From assembly GCF_006345805.1 (NCBI RefSeq), contig NC_042997.1:57598001-57662000 (forward strand): 64,000 nucleotides of DNA, written 5' to 3'. This DNA comes from Octopus sinensis (taxonomy: Eukaryota). The position numbers and the translations under genes are program-made. This document shows positions 15,544-41,737 of this stretch, in pieces. The stretch's first letter is position 1; each line of letters starts with the position of its first letter. The notes under the pieces were generated by a model. The model worked only from the letters and a program-made list of their open reading frames with translations, was not told the origin of the DNA and did not search any database.

Positions 15544-15900
15544 ATATAATTTATATTATTATTTAAATGAATGTCACACATCCATTTCCAAATAAGTTTA
15601 TCTTCACCTTTTTGATGCAACTCTACTCTATACTGTTTTCTCCCCTATCCTTCTCTAATTCTCTTTTTCTCAATAAGATATTGTCAGTCATTAGAACTGT
15701 TATGGAAAAAGACCAAGGTCTCCATGAATGCAAAAAAATACTGATAACATCAAGGAGATGTTAATACACTATGCTTAAGAATGGTTAACTTCTGACTGAA
15801 AAGGGAATTTACCAATTTGAAGAGAATGTTTTGGTATGATCATCAGCAATGGCTAACATACAGATTAGAGTACATTGGAAATTTAACACTTGAAAGTACA

Positions 15901-16085
15901 TCATTGTCATCACCATTTAATGTCCCTCCATGCTGGCATGGGTTGGATGGTTTGACAGGAGCTAGCAAGTCAGAAGGCTGCACCAAGTTCTTTTGTCTGC
16001 TTTGGAATGATTTCTACAGCTGGATGCTCTTCATAACACCAATCAATTTACAGAGAGTGCCAGGTGCTTTTTATCTGGCATCAAC
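15901..16085 (-). mobile_element. Family A SINE copy (decayed)
   Basis: CCATGCTGGCATGGGTTGGATGGTTTGACAGG and TTCTACAGCTGGATG motifs are shared with the copy at 234-700. Confidence 0.65.
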
Positions 16086-16670
16086 AGACTGGTTAAGATA
16101 TGTGGATGATACTTTTCTAATCTGGCAACATGAAGAGATGTCCAAGATCTTGTAGACCACCTTAACTCATTACATACTTCAATACAGCCCCAAGAGAACA
16201 AGCTACAGTAGCATCCACCCTTAGTGGTTAGCCACATTTAAGTGGTAAAATATACTTCACACTGTCGTGCAGCTACTGTTTATACCTCGTTCAGAGATTT
16301 ATTATTGCTTGTTTACACTTTTTCGAGATTAGTGACTTTTTGTCACTGGAAAAAGGATATATGTATTTGCATTGGGACCCCTTTGCATCGAAGACCGGTG
16401 ATTGTCGTACGCTGACGACAGGTAAATACCCAGAAACCTGGGTCTGTACGTATCACATCAGGTTGACAATGGGAAGGATGGCTTCCCTTTGCAAATACTG
16501 ATAGGGCACAGAAAGTGTGTCAATAGCCAGCTGGAGAGGATGTTCTCCTGGGGCTACAAGCTACAGTAGCATCCACCCTTAGTGGTTAACCACATTTAAG
16601 TGGCAAGTATATTTCATATTGTCGTGCAGCTACTGTTTATACTGTTCAGAGATTTATTATTGCATATTTA
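16086..16670 (+). mobile_element. Penelope-like element relic: RT fragment plus pseudo-LTR-like direct repeat
   Basis: WLRYVDDTFLIWQH...HLNSLHTSIQ matches Penelope RT motif C. A ~110-bp direct repeat at 16198-16308 and 16556-16663 (period 358) encloses a hammerhead motif. Confidence 0.75.
16406..16450 (+). ncRNA. Degenerate minimal type-I hammerhead ribozyme
   Basis: CGTACG-CTGACGA-CAGGT AAAT ACCCA-GAAA-CCTGGG-TC-TGTACG. Core boxes are intact and stem I pairs. Stems II and III are restored by reverting CpG transitions. Confidence 0.7.
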
Positions 16671-17919
16671 AAAACATTTTGAGTCAATATGTTCTTAACT
16701 TTAGCTTAATAAGGAACAAATGAGTTTATTTTACTAATTTCTTCCTAATTCTTGATTATTATTTTCAAAATTAATTGAGATACATAAGCAGTGGACTGCA
16801 TTAAAAATATGGTAACGAAAGAGCTAAACTATGAATCACACCATCCACACAGTGTTAAGAAAGGAATTGGCAAATAGCTACAAGATATGGTAAAAACAAT
16901 CTGCACCTATGTATAAGCAAATACAAAAGAAATGTGTCACCTGAAAAACACATTACTAAACAGCAAAATACCCAGCCATCCTAAAGTAAAATGTAGAAGC
17001 TAAATCAAACTCCACTGTTTCTTTATTTTACTGCAACGACAGATCTGAAAAAATTTAGAAAATCTGCACTACATATAACATTAGAATTATGTTCCAAAAT
17101 AATACCATACTTTACAGATTTTCCCCCCAAAGTAGTAAGAACTGCATTTATAATAACTCATTAATTTGTGGGAGGTCTAATAAAGAAGTGCATTGGGGGC
17201 AAGATTTTAAAATCAGATAAGAGGAATATCAGAAGACAGAAGCTCATGTAGACCACATGAACTGACTATATATTTCAATTTGAAGTGTCATATAAGAAGA
17301 GAAACACCAAATTAAGATAAAGCTGAAAATATATGGTTTGAGAACGAAAATATGTTGTGGTAGAATGGAATTTCCATGACAGATAGTTGAAATTTTTTTT
17401 TTTTAAATCAAAATTAGCATTATTTATAATGCTTACTGATAACCTAATCAGTAAGCCCAGCACTGACTTCAGATCAATATGGCTGCCATTTTGGAAAGGT
17501 AAATATAAATAAATTAAAACTATGATAGTAATTGTACTTGCGAATACTACCCTTAGTTTAGAGATAGGTTATTTTTAGAATCTAGTCTTGCACTATGTGT
17601 ACACATCTAGGAATAAGATTGATGGTGATTGGAAATAAAATCAATCAAAACATAATATAAAGATTTTTCACTTCTGAAAATGAGGGTAAATAGTTAAAAA
17701 AATTATTACTTTATTAACAACTCATCTCAAATATTTAATCAATGGGGAGTGTGTTTGCAAATCCAATATATATTGGACCAAATATTTTCAATTATCTGTT
17801 TCAGACATTAGCAACTTAACTTTAACCCTTTGCCTGTCGAAAGTCATTTCATAAGTCTGTCCTAAGTATCTGTACTTGTTTTCAGACTTTTAGTTAGCTC
17901 TTGTTTCATATGTCCTGAG

Positions 17920-20907
17920 CAGTGTTGCCAACTTAAAATCACAATTTTATGCTAAATTTCAGTAGTAAAAATACCAAAAAAATGCTAAATAAGAAAAAAA
18001 ATGCTAAAGACTAATTATATTGAAAAGCTTGATTTTTATTTACATTTTTATTTACTTTCTTTAATTATATTCAACATTGAGAAATAATTTCTTGAATTTC
18101 ACTGATTTGATCACTGCCTACGTCTTGACTTCTGTATACATTCAAGGTTCCAATCTTGTTAATTATGTGTTTTGGAATATCGAGGTTTTTGCAATATTTG
18201 CCATATCTTTTCAGGCCATATTTTACAGACAGTATTGATCTAAGCATGGGAAGATGCATTTTGCTTTTCAATTTTGATTAGATTACACTCATACTACTGA
18301 ACAACCATTCAACTTCTGCATTTGAGTTTGGCAATGCCAATAGAGTAATGGCAAAATTTGCAACATCTCTAAAAGGATTTCCTCCAGTAGCATCTTTATA
18401 TTCCAAGACTTCCAGTCAGAATGCCTCAGTATTAGACATATTTGTCCATTTAACTAAATGAATGCTATTAAACTGAAATTCAATTGAAGCATTTTTTTCT
18501 TCATTTAAATGCATTGCTTCTAAGACAGGTAAAATTGGCTCTTTGAAATGCAGCAAAATATTCTCTACTGAAAAACATTTGATATTCCTTAGTATATTAA
18601 TATTTTCTGGCAAATGGTGCTTGAGCTCTTTATAAAGGCAGAGTAAAAATTGTTGTGCCCTTTTGTGAATATTATTTTCTCCAGTGGCTGTTACAGTTTT
18701 CATGATAATCATTTCTGATATCTTTCACTCGAACCTTTACCCTAAATTTGGTTTAGGATCCAGAAATGTTTCAATAGAAGCATCAGGATCAAGGGGATTG
18801 ATTCTACATGTTGACAACACTACCATATTAGCAACAGGTTTGACCAAATTTGAAAAATCTTGAAGTAATTTTGTTTTGTCGACAGTGTTTGATTCAAACA
18901 GTTTATTCACTTCCTGAACACGTTTTAAAATTGGATGCAAAAAGAAAAGGTAAAGTTCATTCCTAGAATCACAAAACATTTCATGTAACATTTGTGCTGT
19001 AAAGCATTTTTCTTTTGTAGTTGTAGTTTGGAAGTGAGTTTGCAATTCAAACCATTGGCTTAAAATTCTATTCACCACTGGTTCTATTTACAGCCACCTA
19101 GTTGTACAAGAATTCACAATCTTCAAAGGCTCTTTATCAATGATAGCAAGGTAAAGTTGTTTGTAGGCACTTTGTCTTGTTGAAGAATGAGAGAACCATT
19201 TATAGGTTTCAGATACTAAAAATTCTAAATTTATGGGCAGACATTCAGCACAAGTGTGGGATACTGCCAACTGTAAAGAATGACATACACATCTAAATAG
19301 AAGTAATGATGGAACAACTTCTTTTAATTTCTGGAAAACACCATTGTTGACTCCTATCATTAGCATTGTCGGTTCCTATAGCCAGTAAATTTTTTATATC
19401 TAATTTCTTTTTCACTAATTCACTTTTTAAGGCATCTGCATTACATGTTTCTAAAGATATCATACTGAGATATCTATGTACCACTTTTTTGTGAGTATCA
19501 CTGTAATATATGATAACAATTCCTAACAACTTGTTTATTGATATATCACTGGATTCATCTAATAACAGGCAAAATTTTCTATCTCCAATATCAGAAATCA
19601 AATCTCCATCAAAATATGGAACTAGAACATTTCTCCCAATATCTGCACATTTTGTACGATGCAACTTCCCTTTGGATATAATGTCACTATTAGACATATA
19701 ATTCTTACATAACTCTATTTAGTGATCACAGCTATTAAATGATGAGTGGCAACGGCAACAAATAAACATTGCTAAATTTGCTTCAAGCATAGATGTCTTA
19801 TCATTTTTGGTTTTTATAAAATTGGTAAGAGGAATCATTTGCTGTGGAGTTGATGCCTTATGTTTCTTTGCTTCATAGTGACTTTACTAAAAGTGAATAT
19901 TTTGCTAACATATAACATCTACAATATCTGCAATGTGCTTTAGATTGGTCACTAGGTACTTCACACAACCACTTCGTAAACGCTGGCATCTTAAGCATTC
20001 CTTTCGGAATTTTTGCTGGTACAATTTTGTTTTTTCTTTGCTCATTATAATGCAGTGGGAAGCAAAAAGATAAAATGAATAATTAATAAAAATATAACAT
20101 TGAAAACACAAGTTAACAGTTTGCCACTAATAATTCTTTCATTCGCCATTAACAATTCATATGTTTGCTGCTTACAAATTCTTGAGGTGAAGAATACTGA
20201 TTCAGGATGCAGGGTGGCCAACTTATAAATGGAAAAGAAAAATCTGCAGAAATCCTAAAACTGTGTTCTGATATAAACCTGGGAATATCATATTTTGCTT
20301 CTAATCTTATATTTAATATCTATATATCTATTGGTAAAACCACCAATATAACTACAATACTTGAAAAAAAAAAAAATAAGTAGAAATATAAAAATATATA
20401 ATCCAAAACAAGCATGAAAAAACACAGGCCTATTTTAACACAGTTAAATCAGTCAACCTGTCATGATAGAAACTCATCACTACAGAATAAAGCATTGTTA
20501 GAACAAATTTCTATGCTTTTATTCTTTGCAACATATTTACATTATTGCATAGTGAGTTAAGGTGCTGATGTGAGTTATCTTTTCCCCCTCCCCCCACCAG
20601 TACCACTCTGTATCCAAGCAGGGAGGGGGGGTGGAAAAGTTCATAACTTGATAAACTTCCTTTTGATAAACTTTCATTTGAAATTTCAACAATAGCCAAT
20701 AGTACTAAAATTTGGCTTTAAGATACTTTAACAAAAGTAGAAAAGGAGGAAAAAGAAGAAAACAAAGAGTATTGTGGAAATGCTAAAAAAAATGCTAAAT
20801 AAAATTTTAAACCTGCTATTTTCCCTGCTAAATTCAAATATTTTCTGCTAAATGCTGAAAAAAAATGCTAGATCTAGCATAAAATATGCTAAATTGGCAA
20901 CCCCCTG
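17920..20907 (-). mobile_element. Near full-length decayed hAT DNA transposon (~3 kb)
   Basis: Ends CAGTGTTGCCAACTT and AAATTGGCAACCCCCTG form an imperfect TIR pair. Clusters of subterminal TGCTAAA motifs at both ends. Contains a transposase pseudogene. Confidence 0.85.
18071..20045 (-). pseudogene. hAT transposase pseudogene (ZNF862/Tip100-like type), with frameshifts and stops
   Basis: Successive ORFs give MSKEKTKLYQQKFRKE, KLHRTKC, LLLDESSDIS (catalytic D), IGTDNA, RCVCHSLQLAVS (CxxH), TTRWL, and the C-terminal dimerisation region LPNSNAEVE.LFS. Confidence 0.9.
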
Positions 20908-27836: not shown

Positions 27837-28306
27837 ATATTTGAGTATTATTTCTAACAGGTCATGCAACCATGATCCCTTTTCTGGTCCATAAGTTCAG
27901 GATCTGAAGCTAAACATATTGAAGCATTTAATTTTGGACTAGTGCTTTATTATATTTGCCAATTCAACATCCTTGATAAGTTAACATTACAGTCGGTTAA
28001 GTCAATAAAAGGTCAGACTAATAGCTATATCCTGTCAGGGAAGAGAGTCCACTTAAATGTAAATTGATAGGATGAGTTGACAAAACTAAGCGTTGTAAGT
28101 GACACGAGCGCAATGAAATGGACAAATGTTTCATTATTTCATTCAGACAAGCTAAGTAGTCCTAGATATTTTACAAGAATTCAAGTCTTTAGTGGTCTTC
28201 AGGGATTCAATGGATAGCTGAAATCATTATTTTAAAATGGATCCTGAAAACTAATGTATTATGGAATACGCTATTATTAATATCGTGTTGAGTCAAAATC
28301 TTAGTA

Positions 28307-29569
28307 TCAGGCTGAGTAAAAAGTAAGCAACGTTTTGGAACATGAAATTCATCACAATATATTTCAACCATGCAGAAATTATATTCATCAAAATAAGTAC
28401 CATTACAATCAACACATTTTTGCCAACAAGTTACAAGTTTGTTTATTCTGGTAACATAAAAATCTGGAGTTCTGGAACTGATGTACTCTTTGAATGCACT
28501 TTCAGCATCTGTTTGATTTTTGAAATCCTTCTCTTGCAGGAAACCATCAAGGTGCTTGAGAAAGTGGTACTCGGTAAGTGAAAGGTCTGGGGAATAAGCT
28601 GGGTGGGGAAGAACTTCATAGCCAAGTTCCCACAACTTCTGGAGTGTCATTAGTGAAACGTGTGGTCAAGCATTGTCATGAAGAATGATTGGTCCTCTTC
28701 TGTTGACCAGTCTGGGATGAAGGAGTAGCAGTTCTTTTTATTCATTTTGGCAATTTCATAGCAATATGTTTTTGCAGTAATGGTTTTTCCACATTTTAAG
28801 AAGTTATAGTGGATTAGTCCAGCAGTACATCACCAAACAGTCATCATAACTTTCTCAGATTTAGGGAAGGTTTTTGGTGCTTCAGTTTGATTCAACCACT
28901 GCAAAGAATGTTTTTTATTATTGTACAGAATCCACTTTTCATCACAAGTTACAATACAGTCGAGAAAAGGATTGGTCTGGTTATGGAGAAGAAGCAACAA
29001 GCAAATTTCATATCTGTGCATTTTCTGATCTCTTTCAAATTGGGTGGTACCCATTTGTTGAGCTTTTTTGATTTTCTGATCACATGCAAATGGTTACAGG
29101 CAGTTTTCTGGCTAATTTGAAGTTCTTTTGGCAGTTCTCAAGTGGGTTTATGTGGATCTTTCTCAATGACGGTCTTTAATTGACCGTCATCGATGATAGA
29201 TGGGCATCCACTACACTTACGATCTTCAAGGCTCAGGTCTCCACTGCGAAATAGCTTAAACCAAAACCATTTTTGAGCTGACCATTCACTGGTCATTTCT
29301 TCACCAAATGTTTCATTGATATTGCGAGCAGTTTCAGCTGCTGTATGTCCTTTTTTGAAGTTGAATAGCAAAATTGCTTGAATATTGTGCTTTAACAGTT
29401 CCATTTCAGATGACTGTAACAACGGTGAAAAAATATCAATGTTAATTTATTGATGCATTTGGGCAAGTCTATGCCTTTATTATCAGACAATTTCAAAAAT
29501 AAAAAACTGCAAAAATCCAGTACAATTTCTTCATGGTTCAAAACGTTGCTTACTTTTTATTCAACCTGA
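28307..29569 (-). mobile_element. Full-length decayed mariner transposon (1263 bp)
   Basis: TA TSD at 28305-28306 and 29570-29571. ~31-bp TIRs TCAGG(C/T)TGA(G/A)TAAAAAGTAAGCAACGTTTTG with 2 mismatches. Confidence 0.93.
28385..29404 (-). pseudogene. Mariner DD34D transposase pseudogene
   Basis: HTH region FKKGHTAAETARNINETFGE, then TCDEKWILY, LHDNA, HPAYSPDLSLTEYH and WQKCVDCNGTYFD. Multiple frameshifts. Confidence 0.92.
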
Positions 29570-40140: not shown

Positions 40141-40271
40141 AAAAGCAAAGATCTTAGATAAAGAAGATATGCATATTGCAAGTCAACACTTTTCAAGTAG
40201 ATTTACAAATGTAGGAAAACATGGTAAAAGAATTATTCAAACTATTTCAATTATAGTCATCTCGTCTATAT

Positions 40272-41737
40272 CAGTGATTCCCAACGTGATCCCTGGGGCC
40301 CACTGGTGGTCCCCAGAGAATTCATAGCCATAAAAAAAATTGAAGCCATTTCAGATCTGTTATTCATTAAAAGTTTGTCTGAAACTACTAATGGAGAAGA
40401 TATATTCAATGAAGTAATGCAGTATTTTAATGATAAAAATATTCCATTGACTAATTTGATCAACATTGCATCAGATAGAGCTGCAGCCATGACTGGAAAA
40501 GTGAAAGGCTTTGTTTCTAGAATGAAATCAGTTGCTCCTCACATTTTTTATGTACATTGCATTATCCACAGACAGTATTTGGTTGCTAAGAATATTGGAG
40601 GACACATGGAAGAAGCACTCAACACTGCCATACATGCAATTAACTTTGTCAAATCAAACTCAGTAAATAATAGATTTTTTATGCAATTCTGTGAAGATGA
40701 AGATTTGAAAACCCTGTTGCTTCACACAGAAGTAAGATGGTTGTCAAAAGGCCTGAGCCTTGAAAGACTAGTGAATTTGTAGGAACAATTAATCAACTTT
40801 CTCATGTTCAAGAGTCAGATGACTCAATACAACTCCAAGAAGCAAGTTGATACAGTTAAGAAAATTTTGGAAAGTCTTTCTGAGTTTAAATCAAAAATAT
40901 TCTACTTGAGTGATATTTTTAAAACAGTGAATCTGCTTAACTTAGAGCTGCAAGGTAGAAAATCAGATTTGGTCACCTGTTCTCAGAAGATAAAAGGGTA
41001 GATGGGGAAATTAAAATTTTGGAAAAAACAGTTTGAAAAAAAAATTTGGCATCATTTCAAAATTTTAACACCACTGTTCCTACATCAGAATGCAGTGCTG
41101 CATGCATTGCCCATCTTGAAGGTCTTCATGTAGACTTTGAGAGAAGATACAATGATTTATTAAAGGCGGACTATCCACTCTGGAGATGAAAATTTTGAGT
41201 TGGCTGAAACATTGTTGGATTTGAAAAAGAATATGAAACTGAGAAGAGTTGAAAAAGAAGATGTCATTGCCTACATAAAGGAAATATTCGTAGAAGCAAG
41301 CATCATATTTTTCCCTACCACATGGATGGTAGAATCTGCATTTTCAGCTGTTGTAGATATTTTAAGTAGAAAAAGAAATAAATTAGATGACAACAGCAGA
41401 GGAACTATCAGACTAAGACATAATGAGTTCATTGAAATTGATTATGATATCTTGCGTCAGAAACACCAATATCAAGCTAGTCACTAGCCCTAAAAATGAA
41501 CGACTTTATGAAAAAGGATTTTGATAGCTTGTGTTTATCTTTGTTTACTAAAATAAATTTTAAATTTTATCTTTTGTTTGCTAAAATAAATTTTAAAATG
41601 TAAATAGACTATTTTGTCTTTTCATTAAGTATTTTAGTGTGAAAATAGAACAGCATAAAGTAAAAGTAGAAGTGGTCCCTAGAAATTTTTTCAAGTAAAA
41701 AAATGGTCCCTGGGCTGAAAAAGGTCAGGAACCACTG
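40272..41737 (+). mobile_element. Internally deleted Charlie/Buster-type hAT transposon (1466 bp)
   Basis: Perfect 8-bp TSD GTCTATAT (40264-40271 and 41738-41745). TIRs CAGTGATTCCCAAC / GTCAGGAACCACTG. Subterminal TGGTCCC motifs. Confidence 0.93.
40330..41487 (+). pseudogene. Charlie/Buster (ZBED5/SCAND3-like) transposase pseudogene lacking its N-terminal half
   Basis: TTNGEDIF, ASDRAAAMTG, HCIIHRQ, LLLHTEVRWLSKG, FYLSDIF..NLLNLELQG and FPTTWMVESAFS. Confidence 0.9.

What the first reader, a model, noticed from the sequence alone, without database searches (positions are those of the whole stretch)
16406..16450. Fossil minimal hammerhead ribozyme apparently disabled only by CpG decay
Seen: intact CTGACGA, GAAA and GTC core with a predicted cut after 16444. 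Reverting four CpG-type transitions (16420, 16432, 16439, 16445) gives a perfect stem I (CGTACG/CGTACG), a perfect stem II (CGGGT/ACCCG) and a palindromic stem/loop III (ACCCGGGT). Known: Penelope-like elements and retrozymes carry minimal type-I hammerheads with palindromic loop III that work as dimers. Inference: methylation-driven mutation disabled this copy, and active relatives may exist in the genome.
Basis: partly seen in the sequence, partly recalled or inferred. Interest (0 to 1): 0.72.

Follow-up and report, generated by a model that had tools for sequence, protein, structure and literature searches.

The report
Decayed retrozyme copy, C·A-mismatch hammerhead

Summary
The 45-base type I hammerhead motif is real. 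It lies in a 1.3-unit insertion (about 16186-16665) of a dispersed 357-bp protein-free repeat with Penelope-like insertion ends: a non-LTR retrozyme. The fourth does not: A16432 occurs in 86 genomic matches against 0 with G, and in 36 of 37 copies of a 75%-identical sister family. The 'perfect' stem II therefore never existed; helix II starts with C·A. Family stem I has two G·U wobbles and continues past a 3x1 internal loop, so the motif has canonical, not minimal, size. Compensatory changes between the two families support stems I and III. CpG decay is real but passive: it tracks flanking CpG depletion (rho -0.73), and this copy is typical. 'Disabled only by CpG decay' is not shown: two of three changes keep G·U pairs, and the insertion holds one hammerhead, so it has no cis partner. 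Copies with intact core and stems exist; no intact tandem pair or cleavage signal was found. The scan has reported similar retrozymes in this genome, and C·A mismatches in other genomes. Low-moderate interest.

The parts
16186..16200 (-). 15-nt inverted 5' stub of the element (mirror of 16541-16555, 14/15 identical); marks the 5' junction of the insertion
   Evidence: junction printout, read by eye
16198..16555 (+). one full ~357-358 bp repeat unit (family A), no ORF
   Evidence: 91-94% identical to most of the 40 scored of 2341 candidates
16556..16665 (+). partial second unit (terminal redundancy); ends at the family's second fixed 3' end point near 16660
16387..16402 (+). 5' strand of distal stem I (16387-90, 16393-96, 16398-402)
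   Evidence: double changes at 16393-16464 and 16394-16463 between families A and B
16403..16405 (+). 3-nt side of a 3x1 internal loop in stem I (opposite T16451); likely partner of loop II
   Evidence: tertiary contact inferred, not tested
16406..16411 (+). stem I 5' arm (6 bp); family has G at 16409
16412..16418 (+). catalytic core C3-A9, intact in this copy
16419..16432 (+). helix II: C16419·A16432 mismatch, then pairs 16420-23/16428-31 (16420-16431 broken here by a CpG G>A) and loop
16433..16436 (+). core G12-A15.1
16436..16443 (+). 8-nt palindrome = helix III of the dimer; C>T at 16439 in this copy leaves G·U pairs
   Evidence: 16438/16441 C-G in family A, U-A in family B
16444..16444 (+). 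C17; predicted cleavage 3' of it
   Evidence: hammerhead consensus; no read-end pile-up seen
16445..16470 (+). 3' strands of proximal and distal stem I
16087..16185 (+). flank, not part of the family: short frameshifted relic resembling a Penelope-type reverse transcriptase (YVDD motif)
   Evidence: 50% over 22 aa, E 0.21, weak; single-copy in the genome search; not shared by other family loci

Best explanation
The motif is the type I hammerhead of a dispersed 357-bp non-coding repeat (a non-LTR retrozyme) that is likely copied into the genome by a Penelope-like element's enzyme, and this is a passively decayed, single-hammerhead daughter copy that is likely inactive. Mechanism. (1, inferred) A source RNA with two or more units, or two RNA molecules, pairs through the 8-nt palindrome to form helix III and cuts after C16444, releasing unit-length RNA that likely circularises. 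(2, predicted) The lone monomer folds as a long rod in which 16419-16423 pairs with 16436-16440 instead of forming helix II, so it would stay uncut; the family-wide C·A at the base of helix II would favour this off state. (3, footprint shown; enzyme inferred) Reverse transcription starts at one of two fixed points about 45 nt apart, runs a variable distance (median 326 nt, sometimes past one lap), often adds an inverted 5' arm, and favours dinucleotide repeats. (4, shown) After insertion, copies decay at CpGs in proportion to the CpG depletion of their flanks; this copy's flanks are strongly depleted.
For: Family size and dispersion. Covariation between families A and B in stem I and helix III: 91.6% of cells paired, 0/500 shuffles as high, slid controls 20-45%. 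Circular majority unit folds at -130.8 vs -94.3 +/- 5.8 kcal/mol for 100 shuffles; 8 of its pairs change on both sides in family B. Two fixed 3' ends in 46 of 51 single-arm insertions, and one arm at each in 15 of 23 two-armed insertions. Dinucleotide repeat within 40 nt of the 3' end in 39 of 74 copies vs 78 of 1599 window tiles. Abundant Penelope-type (RT + GIY-YIG) elements in the genome, some with 782-aa open frames. Wobble-compatible C>T changes are in excess at three stem positions: 9/57, 13/58, 12/58 vs 3.3% background. CpG decay vs flank CpG o/e: rho -0.73, n=83; non-CpG divergence rho 0.16, p 0.14. Matches descriptions in PMC7229834, PMC4209133, PMC8557442, PMC11167929 and bioRxiv 10.64898/2026.07.22.740005.
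Against: No cleavage evidence. RNA reads from a related organism cover the family thinly in both directions with no start or end pile-up at 16444/16445. No Rfam hammerhead hit for family A; only 16.3 bits (cut-off 34) for one family B copy. Helix II shows no double-sided change, and the covariation is essentially one A-versus-B split in hand-picked rows. Nearest-neighbour energies do not favour the dimer even for the family majority (about -57.9 vs -62.4, rough). No autonomous partner with a matching terminal repeat in 39 PLE loci; two of these merely contain a family copy. None of 4 distinct same-strand tandem pairs has both hammerheads intact. 18 of 107 testable pairs of the predicted rod are broken in family B. 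The three C>T hot spots show no linkage to other variants and could be mutational.
Confidence: 0.8

Rival explanations
1. The unit is only the pseudo-LTR of an autonomous Penelope-like element, and all copies are 5'-truncated remnants of it.
For: Penelope-like insertion anatomy. PLE coding fragments lie next to several copies (L004/L049, L027, L031, L032, L039). An RT-like relic abuts this copy. bioRxiv 10.64898/2026.07.22.740005 derives retrozymes from pLTRs.
Against: Upstream of a unit lies another unit or unrelated DNA; no shared coding sequence. The neighbouring PLE fragments differ from one another and are mostly separated from the unit by (TA)n. The young PLE has a different hammerhead and no similarity to the unit. 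The window's RT relic is single-copy.
Confidence: 0.1
2. One reading: a minimal hammerhead with a perfect 5-bp stem II, inactivated solely by four CpG transitions.
For: Three of the four positions are CpG transitions relative to the family. The copy lies in CpG-depleted DNA (flank o/e 0.11). The U-A/A-U form of stem I is common in organism E.
Against: G at 16432 was never found (0 vs 86; A in 36/37 of family B; no alternative letter listed at 16432 in four organisms' contigs). The span is canonical and stem I is extended. The insertion holds a single hammerhead.
Confidence: 0.03
3. The family's hammerhead was already catalytically dead or irrelevant when the family amplified. The C·A is a crippling lesion, and the stems are kept only as part of a rod needed for recognition by the PLE protein.
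For: G10.1-C11.1 is described as highly conserved (PMC4209133). The predicted monomer fold is non-hammerhead. In the anole Poseidon element, hammerhead cleavage was not needed for insertion in vitro and no RNA-seq ends were seen at the cut site (PMC11167929). No read ends here either.
Against: Core nucleotides are kept between families that are 75% identical while N7 and loop II change (28/33 identical over 16412-16444 vs 15/26 over 16386-16411). The palindrome covaries to stay a palindrome. A mismatch at the base of helix II is tolerated in the axolotl Amex2 ribozyme (U·U; PMC7229834).
Confidence: 0.07

Closest known systems
Metazoan non-LTR retrozymes with type I hammerheads (mussel ~350-390 bp, axolotl 330/350 bp, coral; Cervera & de la Pena 2020, PMC7229834, sections 13-14 and passages read; Li et al. 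2026 bioRxiv 10.64898/2026.07.22.740005, part 1 of 5 and passages read)
   Same: Unit of 150-450 bp, no ORF, GC under 50% (0.47), type I hammerhead in each unit, highly self-paired predicted circle, short palindromic helix III; monomer-rich families are described.
   Different: Mostly 1-1.3-unit dispersed insertions rather than arrays (2 of 74 runs reach two units). C·A at the base of helix II (axolotl Amex2 has U·U there). Circular RNA and cleavage not shown here.
Minimal hammerheads in pseudo-LTRs of Penelope-like elements (Cervera & De la Pena 2014, PMC4209133, parts 1-2 of 4 read)
   Same: [quoted passage not shown]
   Different: Those have helix II of 7-8 bp, helix I of 4-5 bp and a poorly defined loop 1 (S. 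mansoni families). Here helix I is 6 bp plus an internal loop and a long distal stem, helix II is 3-4 bp, and there is an additional unpaired A before G12. No linked ORF.
Penelope-like element insertions (Craig et al. 2021, PMC8557442; Frangieh et al. 2024, PMC11167929; passages read; author names of the latter recalled)
   Same: Partial tandems, inverted 5'-truncated arm, an extension of a few tens of bases at one end (two fixed 3' ends), microsatellite bias.
   Different: No RT or GIY-YIG gene; the mobilising element is not identified.
Rfam Hammerhead_1 (RF00163)
   Same: Same 45-nt span and 14-nt spacing between A9 and G12.
   Different: Scores below the gathering cut-off (16.3 vs 34 bits for one family B copy; no hit for family A); the model skipped helix II.

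Membership tests
Type I hammerhead ribozyme | Core C3 U4 G5 A6 N7 G8 A9 / G12 A13 A14 A15.1 / U16.1 H17 | tested here: met
Type I hammerhead ribozyme | Helix I closes the motif, supported by covariation | tested here: met
   (16407-16449 G-C vs A-U; distal pairs)
Type I hammerhead ribozyme | Watson-Crick G10.1-C11.1 directly next to A9/G12 | tested here: not met
   C·A stands there in families A and B, and A·A in part of organism E; a G-C pair follows one step out
Type I hammerhead ribozyme | Rfam Hammerhead_1 score above gathering cut-off | tested here: not met
Type I hammerhead ribozyme | Self-cleavage after H17 | not testable with these tools
   no read-end signal in fragmented cDNA libraries of a related organism; uninformative
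Minimal PLE hammerhead (min-HHR) | Long helix II (7-8 bp), short helix I (4-5 bp), poorly defined loop 1 | tested here: not met
Minimal PLE hammerhead (min-HHR) | Palindromic helix III/loop 3 allowing a dimer | tested here: met
Non-LTR retrozyme | 150-450 bp non-coding unit, GC under 50%, type I hammerhead in the unit | tested here: met
Non-LTR retrozyme | Tandem units, with at least two intact hammerheads in active loci | tested here: inconclusive
   partial tandems common; 4 distinct same-strand pairs among 106 copies, none with both intact; only a small part of ~2341 candidates examined
Non-LTR retrozyme | Highly self-paired predicted circle | tested here: met
   z -6.3; 8 double changes, 18 broken pairs in family B
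Non-LTR retrozyme | Expressed as linear and circular monomer RNA | tested here: inconclusive
   family reads present at low depth in both directions in organism B; a circle closed at the cut site cannot be told from tandem DNA
Autonomous Penelope-like element | RT + GIY-YIG ORF between pseudo-LTRs | tested here: not met
Penelope-type insertion footprint | Fixed 3' ends with a tail, 5' truncation, inverted 5' arm, microsatellite bias | tested here: met

The most novel reading that the evidence does not exclude
Families A and B carry an active hammerhead variant that has given up the G10.1-C11.1 pair for a conserved C·A (A·A in a relative). This makes a built-in switch: in the monomer or circle, the 5' strand of helix II is captured by the helix III palindrome (off), and only when a second hammerhead takes the palindrome can the weak helix II form (on). 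The excess of wobble-preserving variants would record selection on many source RNAs, and the two fixed 3' ends would map where the borrowed Penelope enzyme starts on the RNA.
Probability: 0.25. Interest if true: 0.55.

Novelty: new member of a known kind. Interest (0 to 1): 0.28.

Why it matters
As a single locus it does not matter: it is a typical decayed copy, 2.8% non-CpG and 23.5% CpG divergent from its family. The family is a usable test case. Natural intact copies exist. The conserved C·A and the predicted off-fold make a simple test of how dimer-type hammerheads avoid cutting their own circles. The family may escape standard hammerhead searches, so retrozyme counts in such genomes may be too low. 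The copy-by-copy CpG decay also acts as a read-out of regional (mosaic) germline methylation. It is also a caution: 'reverting' a fossil by eye to the textbook structure invented a base pair that the family never had.

Tried and rejected
Rfam on the window and on family A loci: no hammerhead hit. The two same-strand hammerheads 2.4 kb apart on contig C8868 are a local duplication of one two-armed insert, not a full PLE. Terminal-repeat match to PLE loci: none. The window's RT relic as family partner: single-copy. Protection of catalytic G8 after insertion: not seen (G>A 7/58, like other CpGs). Subfamily linkage of the three C>T hot spots: none at p<0.02. Pseudoknot partner for loop II shared by families A and B: none of 4 bp or more with a double change, or of 5 bp or more; two 4-bp partners for the stem I bulge are chance-level. 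Sequencing-run search: no RNA holder on record was listed, which is no evidence either way. The depth dip over the hammerhead was not used: sister-family reads fail the likeness filter there. Lunse et al. 2017 (PLE hammerhead variants) was not available, and supplementary figures of the Cervera papers were not read; either may already show C·A variants. Literature searches listed no description of this family; PMC13282606 has no occurrence of hammerhead, retrozyme or ribozyme in its main text. This is not an exhaustive absence claim.

Full report
Observation. The letters and positions are as reported. The motif is not chance: a relaxed hammerhead scan gives this one hit in the window and none in 30 simulated windows. 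Rfam gives no hit at gathering level or at E up to 10.

Context. The motif lies in a repeat unit of about 357-358 bp (16198-16555), followed by a partial second unit to about 16665. A 15-nt inverted stub at 16186-16200 precedes it. The host is a 2.7-Gb AT-rich animal genome; it is probably an octopus, a guess from recalled repeat features that an earlier scan note shares. A search with 16300-16560 gave 2341 candidates, of which 40 were scored, mostly at 91-94% identity. No family locus carries a shared ORF. An RT-like relic at 16087-16185 is weak (E 0.21), single-copy and not shared with other loci, so it is flank.

Testing the four reversions. In 33 rows chosen by similarity (these include duplicates of one locus and one sister-family row), the majority is G at 16420 (28), C at 16439 (25) and C at 16445 (32), but A at 16432 (33). 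Exact patterns over the core and helix II gave 86 genomic matches with A and 0 with G; backward controls gave 0. A transition-tolerant pattern gave 179 matches, and all 100 listed have A (counted by eye). A sister family B (1274 candidates, 40 scored), 75% identical over 396 columns, keeps A in 36 of 37 rows and C or its CpG product T at 16419 in 36 of 37. Contigs of four coded organisms list no other letter at 16432 at the 8% level; organism E often has A at 16419. The base of helix II is therefore a conserved mismatch. The family also has G at 16409 (59/63) and 16448 (56/63): two G·U wobbles that this copy has changed to Watson-Crick pairs, a form common in organism E.

Structure. Between families A and B, pairs 16407-16449, 16438-16441, 16393-16464 and 16394-16463 change on both sides, and three more change between wobble and Watson-Crick. 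N7 and loop II vary freely while the core is kept. On 26 hand-picked full-length rows (13 A, 13 B), 91.6% of cells pair, 0/500 shuffles reach this, and slid controls give 20-45%. This is essentially one evolutionary split, and helix II itself has no double change. The 45-nt span and 14-nt helix II region equal those of Rfam Hammerhead_1, which one family B copy matches weakly (16.3 bits, cut-off 34). With a 6-bp helix I, a 3x1 internal loop and a long distal stem, this fits the canonical type I description in PMC4209133 better than its minimal class. The circular majority unit folds at -130.8 kcal/mol vs -94.3 +/- 5.8 for 100 shuffles; of its pairs 71 are unchanged in B, 10 change on one side, 8 on both, 18 break and 4 fall in gaps.

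On or off. As a monomer, the majority sequence prefers a fold in which 16419-16423 pairs with 16436-16440 (probability 0.95; -31.2 vs about -21 kcal/mol for the hammerhead fold). RNAalifold predicts the same helix for both families. The palindrome duplex is -14.9 for the majority and -9.8 for this copy. A rough dimer sum is -57.9 vs -62.4 for two free monomers of the majority, and -33.4 vs -57.6 for this copy. Tertiary contacts and Mg2+ are not modelled, so these numbers only rank the copies. In this copy only 16420 breaks a proximal pair; 16439 and 16445 leave G·U pairs. It is likely weaker than the family form, but it also has only one hammerhead, so it lacks a cis partner whatever its CpGs.

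Decay. Sixty-three other copies diverge from the majority by 3.6% at non-CpG and 14.9% at CpG positions; this copy by 2.8% and 23.5%. Across 83 copies with usable flanks, CpG decay correlates with flank CpG o/e (rho -0.73, p 4e-15) and non-CpG divergence does not (rho 0.16, p 0.14). Mean decay is 0.22, 0.18 and 0.04 for low, middle and high o/e flanks, and this copy's flank o/e is 0.11. This fits passive exposure to regional methylation; PMC9476566 (abstract only) reports gene-body, not transposon, methylation in octopus. Catalytic G8 decays like other CpGs (7/58). Three non-CpG C>T changes in stems are in excess (9/57, 13/58, 12/58 vs 82/2501; p 1e-4 to 4e-8, uncorrected and picked after the fact). 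All keep G·U pairs, which suggests several structure-preserving source RNAs, but they show no linkage and a mutational cause is not excluded.

Intact relatives. Of 106 distinct copies (21 duplicates dropped; 20 loci were added mostly because their cores looked intact), 30 keep the core and all helix I-III pairs, and one (L171) equals the majority over 16406-16450. None of 4 distinct same-strand tandem pairs has both hammerheads intact. In the earlier set of 84 the figure was 15. RNA reads from related organism B cover the family at tens of reads depth in both directions, carry the majority letters, and show no end pile-up at the cut site.

Mobilisation. Among 74 insertions, 3' ends cluster near 16616 and 16660: 46 of 51 single-arm insertions end at one of them, and 15 of 23 two-armed insertions use one of each. 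Thirty-nine of 74 have a dinucleotide repeat at the 3' flank, against 78 of 1599 tiles of the window. These are the tandem, inverted and tail features described for Penelope-like elements (PMC8557442 and PMC11167929, passages). The genome has many RT-GIY-YIG elements (12,363 candidates, 150 scored), including young ones with 782-aa frames, but their terminal hammerhead differs and they share no sequence with the unit. The partner is inferred, not identified.

Comparison and novelty. It works like, and is best filed with, metazoan non-LTR retrozymes (PMC7229834; bioRxiv 10.64898/2026.07.22.740005); circular RNA and cleavage are untested. It fails the adjacent G10.1-C11.1 feature that PMC4209133 calls highly conserved, though a U·U at that place is known in axolotl. 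Earlier scan notes, unchecked, report other retrozymes with the same footprint in this genome and C·A mismatches in other genomes; a sequence look-up found no note on this family. Lunse et al. 2017 and paper supplements were not seen and may bear on the C·A. Verdict: real motif, ordinary decayed copy, new member of a known kind; interest 0.28.

Noticed in passing
L094:4997 (+), L095, L096, L097, L099: A young Penelope-like family with CxxxxCxxC linker and GIY-YIG domain (Neptune-type by recalled features; 782-aa open frames) has a terminal hammerhead-like core with the U3-A8 swap and a palindromic helix III.
   Followed up: partly
L133-L162: Sister family B, older (8.6% pooled divergence), 1274 candidates, with the same hammerhead layout and compensatory changes.
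   Followed up: yes
L164, L167-L170: A further hammerhead family that passes the Rfam cut-off; L169/L170 form a tandem about 431 bp apart; unrelated to unit A.
   Followed up: partly
L031 about 1295-1335; L048:1202 (+) and 1094 (-); L096:83; L005:1337: Other hammerhead-like cores beside PLE ends or in neighbouring repeats.
   Followed up: no
L004/L049, L027, L031, L032, L039: Family A copies sit next to fragments of different Penelope-like elements, mostly across (TA)n tracts; likely a shared target preference, though co-insertion is possible for L027.
   Followed up: partly
window 15899-16086: Fragment of a very abundant, highly transcribed SINE-like repeat directly upstream (about 1000 reads depth per direction at 16000-16050 in organism B).
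   Followed up: no
window 17240-17279: 80% similar to 16144-16183 and translates to a similar short stretch; possibly a second RT relic.
   Followed up: partly
window 28207-28665 (-), 40228-40782 (+), 19293-19718 (-), 18737-19087 (-): Open frames that look like DNA-transposase relics (mariner-like and hAT-like, judged by eye from recalled motifs).
   Followed up: no
run X18 (organism E): The family there often has A at 16419 (A·A at the base of helix II) and the U-A/A-U form of stem I.
   Followed up: no
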